The translations under genes and the position numbers were made by a program. Below are positions 365 through 57,936 of a stretch of 58,038 nucleotides of DNA, piece by piece. Numbering within the stretch: the first letter of the stretch is position 1; the number at the start of each line of letters is the position of its first letter. Below the pieces are notes generated by a model. It had not been told where the DNA came from. It saw nothing but the letters and a program-made list of their open reading frames with translations, and did no database searches. The DNA is from a virus (lineage: Duplodnaviria; Caudoviricetes), in the IMG/VR virus record IMGVR_UViG_3300023208_000007, positions 1-58,038 of that record; one strand, written 5' to 3'.

Positions 365-766
365 ATGAAAACTTCAATTATCGCTCTTGCTATCGCTTTG
401 GCTTCTGGTTCTGCTTTCGCTACCAATTATGGTCCTTCTCAGGCCTCCATTGGTTTCGGTGCAGCTGAAGCTTCTTCCAACGTCGCCGTCGGCTCTCTTT
501 CTGCTACTGCAAACATCGGCAACGGTTTTGCTAAGCAGGGTACTGAAGTTGGCGCCTTTAATCAGTCTGGCGCCAGCGTTAAGCTTGGTAACGGCACTGT
601 TGAAACTGGCGCAGTCAGTGAAGGCGCTACTTACAGCAAGTCCTACGGGATCGCTCATCACGCTTTGGGCGTAACTGGTGGTTTTGCTGGCCAGACCGGT
701 TCTGCCGGCGCTGAAGGCGTTAGCTTGGTTGTTTATCCGGCTCCTCGCTCCAATCACGATCGTTAA
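365..766 (+). CDS. Secreted Gly/Ala/Ser-rich protein
   Basis: SD AGGAG; Sec signal peptide ending AFA; low-complexity beta-rich body. Confidence 0.75.
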   Translation: MKTSIIALAIALASGSAFATNYGPSQASIGFGAAEASSNVAVGSLSATANIGNGFAKQGTEVGAFNQSGASVKLGNGTVETGAVSEGATYSKSYGIAHHALGVTGGFAGQTGSAGAEGVSLVVYPAPRSNHDR

Positions 767-4053: not shown

Positions 4054-4216
4054 ATAATGAATAAATGTTATTACATAACACTTAAAATTTAAACTAAATT
4101 CCATAAATACTTTAGCAAGGGATGCCACAAGGAACGTTTTACTGCTGCCCCGCCTGGAGACACCACTGGAAGTTTGATAATCTAGGCGCCCTTTTTTATA
4201 AATCATGAGGAATATT

Positions 4217-4306
4217 ATGGAACACTTACTTTTTATTGCGTTAGTAGTTGGTTGGCCAGGTATATTTTTACTTTTTAAAATGTTCAGAAAAGGAAATAAA
4301 GAATAA
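4217..4306 (+). CDS. Small single-pass membrane peptide (29 aa)
   Basis: GAGGA SD; MEHLLFIALVVGWPGIFLLFKMFRKGNKE. Confidence 0.5.
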   Translation: MEHLLFIALVVGWPGIFLLFKMFRKGNKE

Positions 4307-4437
4307 TGGAAGAAAAAATTGAAAAATTAGAAGAGAAAGTTGAAGCGCTAACTGAATTAGTTGCGCAACTAATTAAGCGTGTTACTGAACTTGAAAGCAA
4401 AGAAGTTGTTACATATTCAGGAAGAGTAGGCGCTTAA
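4306..4437 (+). CDS. Small coiled-coil protein (43 aa)
   Basis: TAATG coupling to the previous ORF; heptad pattern MEEKIEKLEEKVEALTELVAQLIKRVTELE. Confidence 0.55.
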   Translation: MEEKIEKLEEKVEALTELVAQLIKRVTELESKEVVTYSGRVGA

Positions 4438-4454
4438 TTGAAAAGCATTCAGCA

Positions 4455-4664
4455 TTATGGACCTGGATCAACAGGTCCATAACTAAATTGACGTGGCCCG
4501 CAGCGTCATAAAAGGTGGCGAGCCCTAGGGATTTTTAATCCTGGCGAAGTGTAAGCGTGACGAATTGATCACGTAAGGACGTGTGATAAACCTGCTAATA
4601 CGATAAATTAGCGTTGGCTAGGAACCAGCATTTACTCTAAAGGGTCTCATTGAGACCCTTTTTT
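4455..4664 (+). ncRNA. Structured intergenic RNA candidate ending in a terminator
   Basis: Perfect 11-bp hairpin 4455-4482, several further hairpins, terminator aaagggtctc/gagaccctttttt. Confidence 0.4.
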
Positions 4665-4868
4665 AGTTTCTAAATATTTCTTTAATAATTATTTTTATTT
4701 TAATATTGGTTTAATAAAAATAATTTACAATTAGCCATTTTTGTGATATAAATACACTTAGGATGAGACTTCTTTTAAGGATCCAAGCATCTTAGCGTTG
4801 TTACAACTCCTAAAGCCCGGTAAATTCTTACCGAATATTTAAATTTCGAGTTTTAAGGTATTTTAACT

Positions 4869-7100
4869 ATGATTAGATTTAAAAAAATCATATTGGGAAC
4901 CGCTTTGTTCGTTGTTTCTCACTTAACGAGCGCAGCAGTTCTCATTATTCCTACCCCACTAAATACCGCCATTAAACCTCCAATGGAGGTTAAATTTGAT
5001 GGTGTGCTTCAACCTACCGGTATAAATTCAATAGTTGCAAATCAAGCGGCTTTAGTTCGACTTGGTAAAGCGTTATTTTGGGATACTCAAGTTGGATCTG
5101 ATGGAATGGCCTGCGCATCATGTCATTTTCACGCAGGTGCTGATAGCAGAAACGTAAATCAAATTAATCCTGGTTTAAATCATGCTGGCAATACTGTATT
5201 TGATCCATTCCCAACTGGTGCTAAAGGTCCAAATTCAACATTGACAGTGCGTGATTTTCCAATGTGGCAGTTTACTGGTGTTGATCCATTAAATCCACTT
5301 CGTCAAACTGCGCTAGTTATTGATGATGTTATTAGTTCTGCAGGAACATTTAACGGCGTTTTTGTTAATACCAGTGGTACTTCCGGTAATGACGTTTGTA
5401 CGCCAAGAGCGCCTGATTATGCAACAAAAGATAATCTAAACACGCGTTTTGTTGAACCACGTAATACTCCAACTACAATTGGCGCTGGATTCTTAGTTCG
5501 TAATTTCTGGGATGGTAGAGCTAATCGTGTATTTAATGGTGTAAATCCTTTTGGTTTACGTGATCCTAACGCGCGTGTTTTTAGAAACGTTGCTGGTGTT
5601 GTCGCTCCTGTTAAATTAGAAGTGAATAATGCTTCTACTGCATCTCAAGCAGTTGGTCCAGTGCTTTCAAATCTAGAAATGAGCTGTCAAAATAGAGCAT
5701 TTCTTGACGTAGCTGCTAAGATCGTTGCAGCTAAAGCGTTAGCAAATCAGAAGGTTTCTCAATCTGACAGCGTTTTAGCGTCTCTTGTAGCTGGGACCGC
5801 CAATCCAAATTTCCTTCGCGCTAACGTTACCTATCGTTCATTAATTCAAGCTGCATTTAAGCCAGAATTTTACACTGGAACAAATGCCCAAGGAATTCCT
5901 TTAGAACAATCAAACTTTGCAATGTACTTTGGTTTAGCTGTTGCTGCTTATGAGAATACATTAGTTGCTGGTAACAGTAAATTTGATACCATTCCAAGAA
6001 CAATCCAAAATGTTCTACCGGTTGGTGGTGCAATTCCTGTTCAAGCACCTCAGCCAATTCGTCTTCCAAGCGGTGTTTTTCGCGGTTTAACACGTAGCGA
6101 GTCACGTGGTCTTGATTTGTTCATGGGCGTAGTTTCAGCTCTAAATCCACAAGTTGGCGTTGATCCTATAACTGGCGCCCCAATTCCACAGAAAAATGGT
6201 CGCTGCATTCTTTGTCATAATGGTCCAGAATTTACAACTGCAACATTTACTGCTTTAGCTCCTGCTCCTGCCGGTGTAATTGTTCCTCCTGGTGCTATCG
6301 CTCCTGAGTTTATGGCTGAACCAATGCCTTTTGCTCCAGGTCTTGCTGGCGCAATTCCTGTTGATCCAATTGTTCCAGCGTTTGATCCAGCAGCTCAGTT
6401 TGGTACTTATGATCTTGGCTTCTATGATATCGGTGTAACACCGCTTGATTTCGATCATGGTCTAGGTGGAAATGACCCATGGAATAATCCGCTAGCGTTC
6501 GCTAAACAATGGGAAAATGCATTTAATGCAAATACTCCTTGCCCTGTTAGCCCTCTCGGTATCGTTGTAGGCGGAGCAGCTTGTACGCCTCCTACTACGT
6601 CTGATGTGTTCAACGTCAATATCAATTTTGTTGATGCAGTTGGTCTACCAGTTGTTATGACTCCAGCGCTTTCACCGGCAAAGACTGACGGTTCATTTAA
6701 GACACCATCTCTAAGAAACGTTGCTTTAACTGCACCGTATTTCCATAACGGTTCAGCAAAAACCCTTGAAGAAGCTCTTCAAGTTTATAATAATGGCGGG
6801 TTGTTTATTAATCCAAATCATCACCCAGAAATTATACCACTTGCATTTGATACAACAGATATTACTGACGTTGCTAATTTCTTGAGAACTCTTACTGACA
6901 ATCGTGTTACTCTTGAGCGCGCCCCATTTGACCATCCTGAGTTGTTGCTTCCAAACGGCCACAAAACGGATGTTAATGGAATATTAATAGGTGCTATTGG
7001 ACAACTAAATGCGACTGATAACATCGTTAAAATTACTGCAACTGGCAGACTTGGACGTACAAGAGCATTACCTAACTTCGAACAGACGTTAGCTCCGTAA
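4869..7100 (+). CDS. Di-heme cytochrome c peroxidase (bCcP/MauG superfamily), secreted
   Basis: Signal peptide; [48 protein letters not shown] motifs; TATAAATA at 4747. Confidence 0.9.
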
Positions 7101-8391: not shown

Positions 8392-8419
8392 TGTACTTTT
8401 AGGGAACTTGTGTTATAAT
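8392..8419 (+). promoter_or_regulatory. Early/middle-type promoter TGTAC(A/T)-N16/17-TATAAT (representative copy)
   Basis: Same motif at 10469, 18880, 23746, 27694, 31015, 44769, 46647, 55059 and 57188. Confidence 0.75.
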
Positions 8420-8454
8420 AAACTCAAGTTCCCTTTTGTATGAGAGAAACTACG

Positions 8455-9621
8455 ATGAAATTTTACCTTGTTGGCGGCGCGGTCAGAGATATTGCGCTAA
8501 ATAAGGCGCCACGAGATATCGATTTTCTCGTAGTTGGTGCTACTCATCAAGACATGCTGAATATGGATTTTATTCCCATTGAGGCAACATCTTTCCCTGT
8601 TTACCATCACCCTGTATCAAAAGCTGAATTTGCCTTAGCGCGACGGGAGCGCAAGGTAGGGACTGGATACCATGGTTTTGAAGTAGATTTTAGTCCTGAC
8701 GTAACGTTGGAGGAAGATCTTTTTAGACGCGATTTTACCATCAACGCAATGGCTATTGAAGTTTATCAAGTCTATGATGATGGGTCTTACGAGGTCACTT
8801 CTGGTGACATTATTGACCCATTTAATGGACTATATGATTTAGAAACCAAAGTGCTAAGGCATGTCTCTGATCACTTCATGGAGGATCCTGTACGTGTTCT
8901 AAGAGCTGCTAGGTTTTTAGCTAGATGGCCTGAGTTTCACATCGATGCTGGAACGCTTAATCTGATCAGTGAAATGCGTGAAAATGGTGAACTAAACAGT
9001 CTCACACCTGAGCGCATTTATCTTGAACTGACAAAGACACTAATGGAAAAAATGCCAAGTCGCTTTTTTCAATATTTGTATGAGTGGAGGCTCAGCCATC
9101 TTGTTCAACATATTTCAGTGCATTCAACAGTTTTCGATTACCTGCCTGACACCGTGACGTTAACACAACGCTTTGCCATTTTGGCTGCCTCACATTGTTA
9201 TTTGTCAGCAAGTGACATCGTTGAAAAAATGACAGCGCTGAAAACCCCTAGTGAAATTATCAAGGTGATGCTGAAAGCAAAATTTCTTGATTACCAGTTT
9301 ATGCAGCTTACCTCTGATTTTATGACTGATTGCAAGTTAGCGGTATGGGTATTTGAAACTTTGAAAGGATTGAACGCAGTACAAGACCCCCGCATAATGC
9401 GAGAGCTAACGGCTGCTTTGCCGTTCTACATTAGCTTCAAGGATAAGGTTCAAGTATGGATGCTGCTCAATTATGCTGCAGGAATTATTTCAAGAACGCG
9501 CTTTGCCGATCTAACGGAAGACCAGCAAAAAACATTAAAAGGACCTGACGTTGGTCGCGCTCTTGATGAACTAAAAATTAAACAAATTCAAAAACTTATA
9601 GACACAATAAATGGACAGTAA
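8455..9621 (+). CDS. cca: tRNA nucleotidyltransferase (CCA-adding enzyme)
   Basis: YLVGGAVRD, DIDF, EFALARRERK, EDLFRRDFTINAMA, EDPVRVLRAARF. Confidence 0.93.
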   Translation: MKFYLVGGAVRDIALNKAPRDIDFLVVGATHQDMLNMDFIPIEATSFPVYHHPVSKAEFALARRERKVGTGYHGFEVDFSPDVTLEEDLFRRDFTINAMAIEVYQVYDDGSYEVTSGDIIDPFNGLYDLETKVLRHVSDHFMEDPVRVLRAARFLARWPEFHIDAGTLNLISEMRENGELNSLTPERIYLELTKTLMEKMPSRFFQYLYEWRLSHLVQHISVHSTVFDYLPDTVTLTQRFAILAASHCYLSASDIVEKMTALKTPSEIIKVMLKAKFLDYQFMQLTSDFMTDCKLAVWVFETLKGLNAVQDPRIMRELTAALPFYISFKDKVQVWMLLNYAAGIISRTRFADLTEDQQKTLKGPDVGRALDELKIKQIQKLIDTINGQ

Positions 9622-10000
9622 TTATCAAAAATTAGTAATTGTTTTACGCTCAGATCTTAAAAACGCCGAAGGTCAAAAAATCAGAACCGGTAAAATTATT
9701 GGACAAGCTGTTCACGCAGCAGTGGATGTATTGATGACTGATACGCTACGTGAGGTTCGTGATGAAGCATTTGATTGGCTTTCTGACGGTTTATCTCGCG
9801 TAGCTGTATTAAAAGTAGGGTCAGAAGCTGAGTTAACTGATATTTACAACAAAGCAGTTGAGAACGGTTTTAATACAGCGCTAGTAAAAGATCATGGGCT
9901 TACAGAATTTGACGGTGTACACACATTAACAGCATTATCAATTGGCCCTGCAGATGCTGATTTGTTAGATCGCGTAACTGGTCACTTGAGCTTGTTTTAA
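9611..10000 (+). CDS. pth2: Peptidyl-tRNA hydrolase, Pth2 family
   Basis: KLVIVLRSDL..GKIIGQAVHA..DHGLTEF..TALSIGP..VTGHLSLF. Confidence 0.9.
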   Translation: MDSNYQKLVIVLRSDLKNAEGQKIRTGKIIGQAVHAAVDVLMTDTLREVRDEAFDWLSDGLSRVAVLKVGSEAELTDIYNKAVENGFNTALVKDHGLTEFDGVHTLTALSIGPADADLLDRVTGHLSLF

Positions 10001-10467: not shown

Positions 10468-10526
10468 ATGTACTTTACCTTATGAGTTTGATATAATGTG
10501 ACATAATTTATTTATAGGATCTTATT

Positions 10527-10841
10527 ATGGGAACCAAGAACAGTGAAATTCCAGAAATTTCTGCTGAAGCTTCAGAAACATTTGACTTAATTCAGGAAGA
10601 ATGTTCCGAGCTCATTCAAATTATTAGTAAGATTCGACGTTTTGGTTTAAAATCGTCACATCCTTTTCATGATACTGATGTAACTAATTATGCACATCTT
10701 ATTCAAGAGATGGGTGATGTGCTATGTCTCATTGAAATTCTTCAAGATCACCTGAAGATTTCAAATGAAGACATTAATAAAGCAATTGACAAAAAATACA
10801 CGAAGCTTCAACAATGGACTAACGTTATTAAAAAGCATTAA
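10527..10841 (+). CDS. MazG-like NTP pyrophosphohydrolase
   Basis: EECSELIQ..SK..RFG and QEMGDVL acidic motifs. Confidence 0.8.
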   Translation: MGTKNSEIPEISAEASETFDLIQEECSELIQIISKIRRFGLKSSHPFHDTDVTNYAHLIQEMGDVLCLIEILQDHLKISNEDINKAIDKKYTKLQQWTNVIKKH

Positions 10842-10960
10842 TGCTTCGTGATTTGTTTGAATTATTTTTTCACCTGTTTAGAGTTATTTGGCTTTATTTT
10901 GCCTTGTTTTGCGTGTTTATATGTTTGATTTGTTTATCTTTTTTAAGAAGGATTTGGGTT

Positions 10961-11550
10961 CTGGGACTTTTGCTACCTTCTAAAAACAAAAGGACTACAA
11001 GGCATCTCTAGCGTACAAGAACGCCCTTTCACAAGAGAGGTAAAAGTTTAGTTAAGCTTTGAAAGCGACACTCAGGGTGGCGGCAGTTTTCGAAATTAAC
11101 TCCAACACGGAATTAACTGGTTGGTAAGCGGGTGGGATCAAATGCAACTTTATCAAATGGACAAACGCGAGTTGAAGTCGCGGGGTAAAGTCTAGAGGCA
11201 GAGCGTTTAACTAGCACCAGGTTCTCCTGAGGAAAAGCAGGAAAAAACAACTCAACAAGAGTTGCCATACACAGCCGTATTCGTCCATACCGTGAATGCC
11301 TTACAATAGTAGGGTTTTGACGGTATGCGCGGGTACCTCTAGCAAGGTGAAGCATCGCAGTTGCTTCGACCAGGATATGAATAACCGCTTCATATTTGCC
11401 GGCTGATAAACGCGTCTTTTTCTCTAGTACTATAGTAGGGTCTTTAACTCTACTCCCTATACTAGAAATAGCTCCTAATTCATAACTAAACTTTTACAAA
11501 ATCTTTAGTTACGGGTGGACCTATTAGCTATTAGAAGGCGAAAAATCCGG
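10961..11550 (+). ncRNA. Large (~580 nt) highly structured ncRNA candidate
   Basis: Nested long-range stems (10976-10983/11531-11538; perfect 15 bp 11040-11054/11483-11497) enclosing many hairpins; no credible ORF; strand not certain. Confidence 0.7.
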
Positions 11551-11560
11551 AAAAATTAAA

Positions 11561-11821
11561 ATGGCAATTATTGAAAGAATTGAAGAACACTTAAAATCAA
11601 CAGATCGTGACTTACTTAATGAAGCTCTAATTGAGTTAAAGATTTTAGAAGAAGTCGCCTCTGAAAGAGCGGCTTTAATTGCTGCTATTTTTAATCACGA
11701 TGATTTTGAAATTCATGATAAAGCGCTTATTGAAAGAATAAATCGCGCTCTTTTTGCAAAAGATTATTTAGACAAGAGATTAAATCGCTACAAGTTCGAA
11801 TGTAAATTGTATGAAGAGTAA
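11561..11821 (+). CDS. Hypothetical protein
   Basis: Open frame with typical composition. Confidence 0.6.
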   Translation: MAIIERIEEHLKSTDRDLLNEALIELKILEEVASERAALIAAIFNHDDFEIHDKALIERINRALFAKDYLDKRLNRYKFECKLYEE

Positions 11822-14233: not shown

Positions 14234-16036
14234 ATGGCGAAAAAAATATGGGAATGGTTTTTACGTAACTTGCTTTTAATTAGTTTATCAATTTTATTGA
14301 TTGTGGGAGCGTATTCAATCATCAATAGAACACAAACTCATGATGAGCCGACACTGTCTTATTATAACTTTATTCAGGCAGTGCACACCGGCTCTGTATT
14401 TAATGCCATCATTCAGAGTAATGAAATTCATGGAATGTTAAAATCTGGTACTGAGTTTAAAACACTTGCACCAGATAATGACACGCATTTGATTGATGAT
14501 TTATTTAGGTACAATGTTGATTTTCGAGTAATTCCACCTGAAAAACAAAGCATTGGAATGGCAATTTTTATTAGCTGGTTCCCGATGCTTATCTTGATTG
14601 GTGTGTGGATTTACTTTATGCGACGTCAAGCTGGCAGCGGCCCGCTGGGCTTCGGTAAAAATAAAGCAAAGTTAGTTGCTGAGGACAAGGTAAAGATTAC
14701 ATTTGCTGATGTCGCTGGCGTTGAAGATGCTAAAGCGGACGTTAAGGAAATGGTTGATTTTTTACGTGATCCTAAAAAGTTCAACAAGCTTGGTGGTAAA
14801 ATTCCACGTGGAGCTCTGTTAGTTGGGCCACCTGGAACTGGTAAGACAATGCTCGCCCGCGCTGTTGCTGGCGAAGCTGGAGTCCCATTTTTTACTCTTT
14901 CAGGTTCTGACTTTGTAGAAATGTTTGTTGGTGTTGGTGCCTCTCGCGTTCGCGATCTATTCGAGGAAGCAAAAAAGAAGGCACCTTGCATTATTTTCAT
15001 TGACGAAATTGACGCAATTGGTGCCTCTCGTGGACAAGCTATAATGGGAAATGATGAGCGCAATCAAACTTTGAACCAGCTACTTGTTGAAATGGATGGC
15101 TTTGAAGGTACTGAAGGAATTATCGTTTTTGCTGCAACTAATAGAGCTGAAATTCTTGATCAAGCTTTACTACGTCCTGGTCGCTTTGACCGACAAGTAT
15201 TTGTAAATCTACCGGATATTATTGGTCGCGAACAAATTTTGCGGGTTCATACTCAAGCAATTCCGCTAAATGATGATGTTGATTTGCTTGCAATAGCTCG
15301 TGGAACACCTGGTTTTTCTGGCGCTGACCTAGCAAATCTTGTGAATGAAGCTGCTATTCTTGCTTCAAAATGTGATCGTGATGTTATTTCAATGCGTCAC
15401 TTTGAAAAAGCAAAAGACAAAATCATGATGGGCGCCGAGCGTAAATCGCTAATGATGACTGATGATGAAAAGCGTCTTACTGCCTATCATGAAGCTGGTC
15501 ACGCGGTTGTTGGATTTTTTACTCCTGAGCATGATCCACTTTATAAAGTTAGTATCATCCCGCGCGGTAGAGCCTTAGGTATTACTATGTTCCTACCCGA
15601 ACATGATAGAGTTTCAATGTCAAAGCGTAAGGTTGAAGGTCAAATTGCAAGCTTGTATGGTGGTCGAATTGCTGAGGAAATTATTGCTGGGCCAGACGGT
15701 ATTACAACTGGAGCTTCGAATGACATCGAGCGAGCTACAGTTCTCGCAACTAAGATGGTAACTGAGTGGGGCTTTAGTGAAAAGCTTAAGTTGCTTAAGT
15801 ATATTGATCAAGACCATTCATCAATGTCAAATTCAACTCACATTGCCACTGGTCTTGAGGATGATGAAGATCGAAGAATTATCAAGGAAGAAATAGAGTC
15901 AATATCACAGCGCAACTATGATAGAGCACGTAACATTATTGAAAACAACTGGTCTAAAATGGAAGCAATTGCTGAAGCACTGATAAAATTTGAGACAATT
16001 GATATTAAACAAGTCGAAGAAATAATGGCAGCATAA
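14234..16036 (+). CDS. ftsH: ATP-dependent zinc metalloprotease FtsH
   Basis: Two TM segments, [30 protein letters not shown]. Confidence 0.97.
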
Positions 16037-23740: not shown

Positions 23741-23802
23741 AAACTTGTACATTTTGGATAGTTATGTTATAATATGCTTAGACTAACTAACTGAGAACTC
23801 CA

Positions 23803-43456: not shown

Positions 43457-44662
43457 ATGTCAAAAGAAATTATAGCTATAATAGGAGCAAACTACGGAGA
43501 CGAAGGAAAAGGTCTTTTTACTGATTACTTTGCAAATGTGCGACATGATGGTATTGTTGTACGACATTCAGGCGGCGCGCAAGCTGGTCACACAGTTGTC
43601 TTAGAAGATGGGCGCCGACACATTTTTTCTCACTTTGGCTCTGGCAGCTTTATTGGTTTACCAACATTTTTAGGTAAAGAATTCGTTATTCACCCACCAG
43701 TTTTCAAACGTGAGCTTATAGAACTTTGGAAAAAGCAAGTTGATCCAAAAGTTGTATCTGACCCACGTGCAATAATCACCACTCATCTGGATGTGATTAT
43801 AAATCAAGCGCTTGAGCGCAAACGCACTGAGCGACACGGTTCAGTAGGGCTTGGATTTTGTGAAACAATTGAGCGAAATACTCGCAGTGCGTTTGGCTTT
43901 AACTTGTTAGACTTGTTTACTGTAGATCAATCTCATTTGATTGATTTTATTGTTAACAAAATGAAATTCTTAAGAAATGAATGGTTAAATACACGCCTTG
44001 AAGAGCTTGAACTAACAGAAGGCGATCTCCCTGAGTATTTTTTTGTTGACTCACATAACATGGATAAAGGTTACGCTGAGATGTGCATGTGGATTCGTCA
44101 GAATATTAAGATGGCACCCCCTGAAACACTTGATCTTTACGGCACTGTTATTTTTGAAGGATCACAGGGACTTTTGTTAGATCAAAACAGCTCTAACTTT
44201 CCTCACGTTACACGTGCAAATACTGGCGTTAAAAACGCAGTTGAAATGATCGAAGAAAGTCAGATTGATGTAAGTCAATTTAATTCAATTTACGTTAGCA
44301 GAACCTATATGACAAAGCACGGTAATGGGCCACTACCTTATGAGGATGATTCTTTTAAGTGGCCCATTGAAGATGAAACAAACATTGAGCACGAGTTTCA
44401 AGGTAAATTTCGCTCTGCCCCAATTGGCATGGATGACTTAGGCGAGCGAATAATCGCTGACTTTGATTTAATTCCAAAAAAATTTAATCCAGTTAGAAAG
44501 TTGGCAATGACTCACTTTGATAAAATAAGTGAAACCGCGGTTTTTTACATAAACACTGACGAACGCATTGAAGTATCTGGAAAAGATTACGCTGAAATGA
44601 TGATGAATGCAGCAGATTTTATGTCAAACGGTCCTACTCGTTACGATATCACAGTTTGCTGA
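43457..44662 (+). CDS. Adenylosuccinate synthetase-like protein (divergent PurA family)
   Basis: GANYGDEGKG, GGAQAGHTV, FEGSQGLLLD, PHVT, RTY.TKHG.GP. Confidence 0.85.
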   Translation: MSKEIIAIIGANYGDEGKGLFTDYFANVRHDGIVVRHSGGAQAGHTVVLEDGRRHIFSHFGSGSFIGLPTFLGKEFVIHPPVFKRELIELWKKQVDPKVVSDPRAIITTHLDVIINQALERKRTERHGSVGLGFCETIERNTRSAFGFNLLDLFTVDQSHLIDFIVNKMKFLRNEWLNTRLEELELTEGDLPEYFFVDSHNMDKGYAEMCMWIRQNIKMAPPETLDLYGTVIFEGSQGLLLDQNSSNFPHVTRANTGVKNAVEMIEESQIDVSQFNSIYVSRTYMTKHGNGPLPYEDDSFKWPIEDETNIEHEFQGKFRSAPIGMDDLGERIIADFDLIPKKFNPVRKLAMTHFDKISETAVFYINTDERIEVSGKDYAEMMMNAADFMSNGPTRYDITVC

Positions 44663-45052: not shown

Positions 45053-45122
45053 CTCCCAGCCGGTGGATTCCGGACCTGACGCTTCGAACGTTGGAGGTGT
45101 GGTTCGATTCCGCATTGGGAGG
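45053..45122 (+). tRNA. tRNA-Arg(UCG), atypical D arm
   Basis: Acceptor ctcccag/ttgggag; loop cttcgaa; TTCGA T loop; no U8-A9 linker. Confidence 0.7.
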
Positions 45123-45446: not shown

Positions 45447-45537
45447 GGAAGCGTAGTGTAGTGGCCGCACAGCAGTTTTATACACTGCATAGCCCCAGAT
45501 TAGGGCGTAGAGATGGGTTCGATTCCCTCCGCTTCTA
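45447..45537 (+). tRNA. tRNA with UAU (Ile) anticodon and long variable arm
   Basis: gcagt-tttatac-actgc; variable hairpin gccc..gggc; acceptor ggaagcg/cgcttct. Confidence 0.7.
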
Positions 45538-45545
45538 CAAATTAT

Positions 45546-46550: not shown

Positions 46551-46636
46551 ATACCAGTATGCAAAATAGGACAAAAGCGGTCGGTCTTTCAAACCGATGT
46601 CGAAAGACGTTGCGGGTTCGAGCCCCGTCTGGTATA
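46551..46636 (+). tRNA. Type II (Leu-like body) tRNA with UUC anticodon
   Basis: tcggt-ctttcaa-accga; variable arm gtc-gaaa-gac; A73. Confidence 0.7.
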
Positions 46637-46702
46637 CAAAATAAATTGTACTTTTGCAGAAACTGTGTTATAATTATTTCTGTAGAGTACTGGAGAACTT
46701 TG

Positions 46703-57184: not shown

Positions 57185-57249
57185 TATTGTACTTTTTTGT
57201 TCATCTTGTTATAATTTTACCATACGCTAATTGATGCTGGAGATTTAAG

Positions 57250-57859: not shown

Positions 57860-57936
57860 GCCTCATTAGCTCAGTGGTTAGAGCGGGTGACTCTAAATCT
57901 CCGTCAGCACAGGTTCGAATCCTGTATGAGGCACCA
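57860..57936 (+). tRNA. Amber suppressor tRNA (CUA anticodon)
   Basis: gcctcat/atgaggc; ggtga-ctctaaa-tctcc; canonical D and T arms; A73 and encoded CCA. Confidence 0.85.

What the first reader, a model, noticed from the sequence alone, without database searches (positions are those of the whole stretch)
10961..11550. ~580-nt ornate non-coding RNA
Seen: the largest gap without a credible ORF in the window, closed by nested long-range stems (ccttctaa/ttagaagg; perfect 15-bp gtaaaagtttagtta/taactaaacttttac). Internal stems include ctagagg/cctctag, cataccgt/acggtatg, caactc/gagttg, gaagca/tgcttc, atatgaa/ttcatat, tctagta/tactaga, cgcga/tcgcg and ccaac/gttgg, with a possible aagcgg/ccgctt pseudoknot. 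Established: ROOL and GOLLD are large ornate RNAs of similar scale found in phages. I cannot assign it to either, so it may be a new class.
Basis: partly seen in the sequence, partly recalled or inferred. Interest (0 to 1): 0.8.

Follow-up and report, generated by a model that had tools for sequence, protein, structure and literature searches.

The report
Orphan structured RNA candidate in phage
A 719-base stretch with no gene in a large lake-water phage most likely makes a folded non-coding RNA that matches no known RNA family, but it has no relatives in the databases searched and no expression data, so it remains a candidate.

Summary
Window 10842-11560 is ORF-free under three genetic codes. 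It is GC-enriched (0.46-0.47 against 0.30-0.33 in the flanks).

The folding signal is uneven. It sits in a 3' core. 11203-11413 gives z -5.99 on the + strand and -3.07 on the - strand. An overlapping window ranks 3 of 386 across the record. The 5' half (z -1.26) is ordinary. The long-range stems (-19 kcal/mol) are ordinary by duplex energy.

It is no known family. Rfam 15 gave nothing at gathering or at E<=10, the ROOL and GOLLD models gave nothing, and ARAGORN found no tmRNA.

No homologue was found in phage isolates, plasmids, IMG/VR, JGI metagenomes or GTDB genomes, within the limits of pattern scans. Covariation therefore cannot be tested. No RNA run holds the sequence.

The element lies in a + strand unit: promoter 10469-10497, MazG-like gene, U-rich spacer, the element, then an 86-aa ORF. 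A CCA-adding enzyme and PTH2 lie just upstream.

Best reading (0.5): an orphan structured ncRNA, possibly cut out at its terminal helix. The robust core is about 270 nt, not 580.

The parts
10469..10497 (+). Phage promoter of the class TGTAYWT-N14-18-TATAAT. It is the likely start of the transcript that carries the element.
   Evidence: The pattern has 12 matches in the window against 0.11 expected from 100 shuffles. One match is here and none lies in 10842-11560. Sequence read.
10527..10841 (+). MazG-like nucleoside triphosphate pyrophosphohydrolase gene (104 aa), immediately upstream
   Evidence: PF03819 E 1.2e-05; phrog_4856 E 8.6e-18
10842..10958 (+). U-rich (T/G-rich) spacer with no folding signal
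   Evidence: z +1.07, with 176 of 200 shuffles folding as well. AT skew is -0.26. The 56-aa ORF that runs through it (10841-11011) has flat codon scores in all three frames, no SD, no family and no entry in the protein collection.
10959..10983 (+). 5' strand of the terminal closing helix P1, in three segments (7+6+7 bp)
   Evidence: Pair probabilities 0.92, 0.81 and 0.93. Duplex energy -19.2 kcal/mol, which is ordinary against background.
10984..11202 (+). 5' domain with small hairpins (11011-11024, 11025-11040, 11058-11094, 11102-11124, 11166-11182). The structure is not significant on its own.
   Evidence: z -1.26. The 211-nt windows 10951-11161 and 11101-11311 give z -0.13 and -0.39.
11040..11054 (+). 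5' arm of the perfect 15-bp long-range helix P2
   Evidence: 100% complementary to 11483-11497 (I3). Joint longest perfect inverted repeat within 700 nt in the window.
11203..11413 (+). Core domain. It is closed by the 7-bp helix 11203-11209/11407-11413. It contains hairpins 11225-11242 and 11248-11264, and a sub-junction 11272-11276/11401-11405. That sub-junction carries the long hairpin 11277-11336 and hairpins 11346-11371 and 11373-11397.
   Evidence: MFE -76.9 against shuffles -51.99 +/- 4.16, z -5.99, 0 of 200 as good, and the MFE is nearly identical to the centroid. The minus strand gives only z -3.07. Pair probabilities are 0.76-1.00.
11423..11466 (+). Hairpin 3' of the core. It carries a second copy of the 10-nt word ATAGTAGGGT, also present at 11306.
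   Evidence: Inner stem p 0.93. Repeat D3. The word occurs exactly twice in the window.
11483..11497 (+). 3' arm of P2
   Evidence: I3
11498..11511 (+). Competitor that can pair locally with the 3' arm of P2 (13 nt, 85% complementary)
   Evidence: I12. The ensemble is split 0.53 long-range against 0.46 local.
11531..11552 (+). 3' strand of the terminal helix P1. It covers the GGA at -12 of the next ORF.
11561..11821 (+). 86-aa helical ORF of unknown function, 8 nt after the terminal helix
   Evidence: Codon score 0.34 in frame, as for real genes. It is in the protein collection on 5 contigs but has no other homologue. No Pfam or PHROG match. The Atlas gave only weak leads.
11113..11355 (-). 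80-aa antisense ORF, judged spurious
   Evidence: No family. No homologue, and not itself in the 5.8-billion-protein collection. No relative in three contig collections. Against this, its codon score of 0.108 is weakly frame-specific.

Best explanation
The gap encodes an orphan structured non-coding RNA read from the + strand.

Proposed path:
- It is transcribed as part of the unit that starts at the promoter 10469-10497. That unit runs through the MazG-like gene, a 117-nt U-rich spacer, the element (10959-11552) and the 86-aa ORF.
- Its robust part is a compact multi-hairpin core of about 270 nt (11194-11467).
- Around the core, a perfect 15-bp helix and a ~20-bp interrupted terminal helix can bring the two ends together. 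This resembles the processing stems that flank ribosomal RNAs.
- I infer that a double-strand-specific RNase (RNase III type) cuts the terminal helix and releases a stable RNA that acts in trans, as is supposed for ROOL and GOLLD. Given the CCA-adding enzyme and PTH2 next door, it may act on the translation or tRNA machinery.

Shown: there is no coding capacity. There is a strand-specific folding signal in the core. There is a promoter upstream and none inside. The element is absent from all Rfam families.

Inferred: transcription, processing, stability, action in trans and any target.
For: - Non-coding: 9-22 stops per frame and no ORF under three codes. None of the 10 stop-to-stop fragments of 31 aa or more that were scanned (of 11 fragments of 30 aa or more) matches Pfam or PHROGs at E<=0.1.
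- GC is 0.46-0.47 against 0.30-0.33 in the flanks.
- The whole element folds with z -5.30.
- The core gives z -5.99 on the + strand and -3.07 on the - strand. A purely DNA-level palindrome would be symmetric between strands.
- The + strand MFE is -181.7 against -174.1 for the - strand. 88 of 206 unpaired bases are A.
- Window 11251-11461 ranks 3 of 386 in a scan of the whole record.
- The promoter class has 12 matches against 0.11 expected, with one at 10469-10497.
- All flanking genes are on the + strand and concern tRNA or nucleotides.
- Sequence from other lake-water runs was laid on the stretch with no differing letter, so the gap is not an assembly error.
Against: - No homologue was found anywhere, so there is no covariation.
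- The 5' half has no folding signal.
- The long-range stems are ordinary by duplex energy.
- MFE regressed on GC is not an outlier.
- Strong negative z-scores also occur at ordinary terminators and inside genes of this phage: 16 of 386 windows have z <= -4.
- P2 has an equally likely local competitor.
- None of the predicted hairpin loops is a GNRA or UNCG tetraloop (my reading of the helices).
- No terminator or dedicated promoter brackets the element.
Confidence: 0.5

Rival explanations
1. It is evolutionary debris. Either a decayed gene or recently acquired foreign DNA sits between two genes, and its hairpins are chance or leftover features with no function of their own.
For: - It is an orphan with no relative in any collection.
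- Its GC differs from the phage's, as acquired DNA would.
- The 5' half folds no better than shuffles.
- GC-regressed MFE is ordinary.
- A 126-codon open run on the minus strand has a weakly frame-specific codon score.
Against: - The core gives z -5.99, with MFE and centroid nearly identical, and shows strand asymmetry.
- No fragment matches any protein family.
- The phage is otherwise densely packed. Its other long gaps hold tRNAs or small ORFs.
Confidence: 0.2
2. It is a cis-acting structured intercistronic element of the MazG-ORF86 mRNA. It stabilises the message or gates translation of the 86-aa ORF, because the terminal helix buries the GGA at -12 of that ORF.
For: - There is no promoter or terminator of its own.
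- The helix strand 11546-11552 lies 9-15 nt before the ATG at 11561. This phage uses SD motifs at -13 to -8.
- P2 has a mutually exclusive local alternative, as switches do.
Against: - About 590 nt, and a 270-nt multi-hairpin core, is far more than occlusion of a ribosome site needs.
- No known riboswitch or leader family matches.
Confidence: 0.15
3. It is a DNA-level element. One option is a non-autonomous mobile element bounded by the perfect 15-bp terminal inverted repeats. The other is a replication origin next to an AT-rich unwinding tract.
For: - The perfect 15-bp inverted repeats are 428 nt apart.
- The interior is richer in GC than the phage.
- An AT-rich, strand-skewed tract lies at 10842-10958.
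Against: - There is no second copy of the repeat or of the interior in the window.
- There is no target-site duplication at the ends (read).
- No copies were found in phages, plasmids, IMG/VR, metagenomes or genomes.
- The folding signal is strand-asymmetric.
- There are no iterons.
Confidence: 0.08
4. The gap holds small unannotated protein genes. Candidates are the hydrophobic 56-aa ORF 10841-11011, whose ATG overlaps the MazG stop codon, and the 80-aa antisense ORF.
For: - There is a TAATG stop-start overlap, and residues 12-30 have a hydrophobicity above 2.
- The 80-aa ORF has a frame-specific codon score of 0.108.
Against: - The 56-aa ORF scores -0.16, -0.21 and -0.15 in the three frames, so it has no coding signal. 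T is enriched at all three codon positions. It has no SD.
- Neither ORF is in the protein collection, although ORF86 is.
- Neither has a family.
- Together they would still leave most of the core unexplained.
Confidence: 0.05

Closest known systems
ROOL RNA (Rfam RF03087)
   Same: Similar overall size if the full 590 nt is real: ROOL averages 581 nt (PMC5737381, passages read). Both are phage-borne, have multistem junctions and possible pseudoknots, and have no known protein partner or function.
   Different: No match to the ROOL covariance model at E<=10. It is not next to the tRNA island, which starts about 34 kb away. Only a core of about 270 nt is statistically supported. ROOL is a conserved family, whereas this is a singleton.
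GOLLD RNA (Rfam RF02032)
   Same: It is found in lake metagenomes and phages, and is large and structured. GOLLD and ROOL are described as phage or prophage RNAs near tRNA genes (bioRxiv 10.1101/2024.12.08.627333, passages read).
   Different: No match to the GOLLD model: 11 candidates were scored and none reached E<=10. GOLLD members often exceed 800 nt. No tRNA is embedded in or adjacent to this element.
RNase III processing stems that flank rRNA and phage early RNAs (recalled knowledge)
   Same: The two ends of the element pair in an interrupted helix of about 20 bp that encloses the whole structured part.
   Different: Cleavage is untested. The helix is A/U-rich and ordinary in energy.
T4-type RNA structures that occlude ribosome sites of downstream genes (recalled knowledge)
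   Same: A T4-like late promoter word (TATAAATA) is used by this phage. The helix covers the GGA before ORF86.
   Different: Those structures are short hairpins, not elements of hundreds of nucleotides.

Membership tests
ROOL (RF03087) | Scores against the family covariance model (gathering score 99.1 bits) | tested here: not met
   No hit at gathering, at E<=10 on 10700-11700, or in the model-specific search of the record (3 candidates scored). That search had no positive control: nothing rang in the 14 control genomes.
ROOL (RF03087) | [quoted passage not shown] | tested here: inconclusive
   The length of 594 nt fits. The predicted fold has several junctions and two possible pseudoknots: 11126-11131/11385-11390 and 11194-11200/11338-11344. 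This is single-sequence prediction only.
ROOL / GOLLD | Located in phages or prophages, often beside tRNA genes | tested here: inconclusive
   It is phage-borne. The nearest tRNA gene is at 45053. The neighbours are tRNA-related enzymes, not tRNAs.
GOLLD (RF02032) | Conserved 3' region scoring against the family model (gathering score 150 bits) | tested here: not met
   (11 candidates scored, none at E<=10)
tmRNA, RNase P RNA, group I and II introns, known ribozymes and riboswitches | Match to the Rfam model; for tmRNA also detection by ARAGORN | tested here: not met
   At E<=10, Rfam returned only eukaryotic snoRNA and miRNA models at 14-18.5 bits. ARAGORN lists 20 tRNAs and no tmRNA.
Miniature inverted-repeat mobile element | Terminal inverted repeats, a target-site duplication and multiple copies | tested here: not met
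   Inverted repeats are present. There is no duplication at the ends. There are no other copies in the window or the collections. Only about 25% of the genome is available.

The most novel reading that the evidence does not exclude
This is the first seen member of a new class of large, self-contained structured RNAs of T4-like freshwater jumbo phages. It would be functionally analogous to ROOL and GOLLD, perhaps a multimeric scaffold or a decoy acting on tRNA or ribosome metabolism, but unrelated to them in sequence and fold. It would be released from an early operon by cleavage of its terminal helix.
Probability: 0.2. Interest if true: 0.75.

Novelty: new variant of a known kind. Interest (0 to 1): 0.42.

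Why it matters
Large protein-free structured RNAs of phages (ROOL, GOLLD) were recently shown to build nanocages, and their function is still unknown. A third, unrelated example would widen that category. This one sits in an early operon beside tRNA-repair genes of an uncultured lake phage, which would give a new context for asking what such RNAs do. As it stands the element is a singleton without comparative or expression support. Its value is as a flagged candidate to revisit when relatives or metatranscriptomes appear.

Tried and rejected
Homologue searches, all negative:
- blastn and megablast against 50,697 phage records, and blastn against plasmids.
- Synteny through the CCA enzyme gave 3 loci at 48% identity. 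They have no ORF-free gap and no blastn, nhmmer or Rfam match.
- Synteny through the 247-aa protein and MazG found nothing. FtsH gave 1 locus.
- Whole records of those four relatives gave no match.
- Codon-degenerate patterns over the core were run in IMG/VR, JGI metagenomes and GTDB genomes. They matched 7, 493 and 246 stretches, and none was confirmed.
- A three-part GGGTGG pattern gave 23 hits. All lie in DNA of 55-73% GC, and in every one a frame stays open for 131-210 of about 200 codons. None resembles the query.
- Four mixed plain/RY patterns gave 0, 0, 0 and 1 hit. The one hit is a chance match of 15 nt in a haloarchaeon of 71% GC.
- A covariance model of the core finds itself at 267.7 bits. 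It finds nothing in four related IMG/VR records or in Xanthomonas phage X1.
- These scans need exact short patterns, so relatives below roughly 85-90% identity could be missed.

Expression and population variation:
- No RNA holder is listed among the 9 lake-water runs.
- Four runs were laid. All 13 contig pieces are identical to the window, so there is no population variation to read.

Other leads that went nowhere:
- The distant isolates Xanthomonas phage X1 and Aeromonas phage phiAS5 have no large gap beside their CCA enzyme.
- Shine-Dalgarno mimicry by the three GGGTGG words: the best site, at 11125, ranks only 26th in the window for pairing to the 16S tail.
- Recoding by the CUA-anticodon tRNA: no ORF appears under TAG=Q.
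- The top GC-regressed folding outlier (401-1000) is coding DNA for secreted proteins.
- The Atlas search of ORF86 gave only leads below the bar.

Literature and tools:
- Literature searches showed no described family that fits. Only listings and abstracts were seen for most papers. Passages were read for PMC5737381 and 10.1101/2024.12.08.627333. Supplements, including the ROOL alignments, were not seen.
Relatives cannot be drawn for a virus record.

Full report
Setting

The window is a complete IMG/VR virus record of 58,038 bases, and CheckV rates it 25% complete. It is therefore a fragment of a phage of roughly 200 kb or more. DNA runs that hold it are all labelled lake-water metagenomes.

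The gene content includes:
- 20 tRNA genes at 45-58 kb;
- a CCA-adding tRNA nucleotidyltransferase (8440-9621);
- a PTH2 peptidyl-tRNA hydrolase (9611-10000);
- an RNA ligase, a NAMPT, an FtsH-like protease and a PurZ-like adenylosuccinate synthetase.

The nearest isolates by the CCA enzyme are jumbo phages of Xanthomonas, Aeromonas (Straboviridae) and Vibrio, at under 43% identity. The T4 late-promoter word TATAAATA occurs 11 times on the + strand. The lineage is poorly sampled. The 86-aa protein next to the element has no homologue except itself among 5.8 billion proteins.

Noticed in passing
window 57860-57936: A tRNA with anticodon CUA, which would read amber codons. ARAGORN labels it tRNA-Pyl, and the Rfam tRNA model scores 62.3 bits. 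The ORFs of the window look intact under table 11, so it may act only on late genes or on host messages.
   Followed up: partly
window 43457-44662 and 10527-10841: A PurZ-like adenylosuccinate synthetase (phrog_1211, E 1.6e-46; about 33% identity to Vibrio phage genes annotated as 2-aminooxy adenylosuccinate synthetase) occurs in the same record as a MazG-like pyrophosphohydrolase. This raises the possibility of a 2-aminoadenine (Z) genome.
   Followed up: no
window, 12 sites (e.g. 8392-8419, 10469-10497, 23746-23773, 57188-57215): A well-defined phage promoter class, TGTAYWT-N14-18-TATAAT, has 12 matches against 0.11 expected, 11 of them on the + strand. The T4 late-promoter word TATAAATA occurs 11 times on the + strand and 6 times on the - strand.
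   Followed up: partly
window 4060-4868: A second long gap. It holds two very small ORFs (starting about 4218 and 4307). A hairpin-rich stretch 4440-4665 follows and ends in a strong terminator (4640-4665). The window 4136-4725 gave z -5.70 and 4801-5011 gave z -6.66. It could be a small RNA or a structured 3' UTR. It has no Rfam hit at gathering.
   Followed up: partly
window 4869-7100: A 743-aa protein with di-haem cytochrome c peroxidase/MauG and cytochrome c domains (PF03150, E 1.2e-20). This is an unusual gene for a phage. It has no tblastn match in 50,697 phage records.
   Followed up: no
window 14234-16036: An FtsH-like AAA metalloprotease (600 aa), 51-59% identical to bacterial-type FtsH sequences and 51% to that of Microcystis phage MaAM05.
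   Followed up: no
window 365-766 and 871-1412: Two Gly/Ala/Ser-rich proteins with signal-peptide-like N-termini, in DNA of 47-48% GC. They are separated by a 14-bp perfect terminator hairpin (805-842). This region is the top folding-energy outlier of the record, although it is coding.
   Followed up: partly
window 45447-45538 and 46551-46637: Two unusually long tRNA calls: Ile-UAU at 92 nt and Glu-UUC at 87 nt. They may carry insertions or introns. The second only just reaches the Rfam threshold (29.1 bits).
   Followed up: no
window 11075, 11130, 11513: The word GGGTGG occurs three times inside the element, out of 7 on the + strand of the whole window. Its complement is absent from the element. 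No explanation was found, and pairing to the 16S tail is not exceptional.
   Followed up: partly
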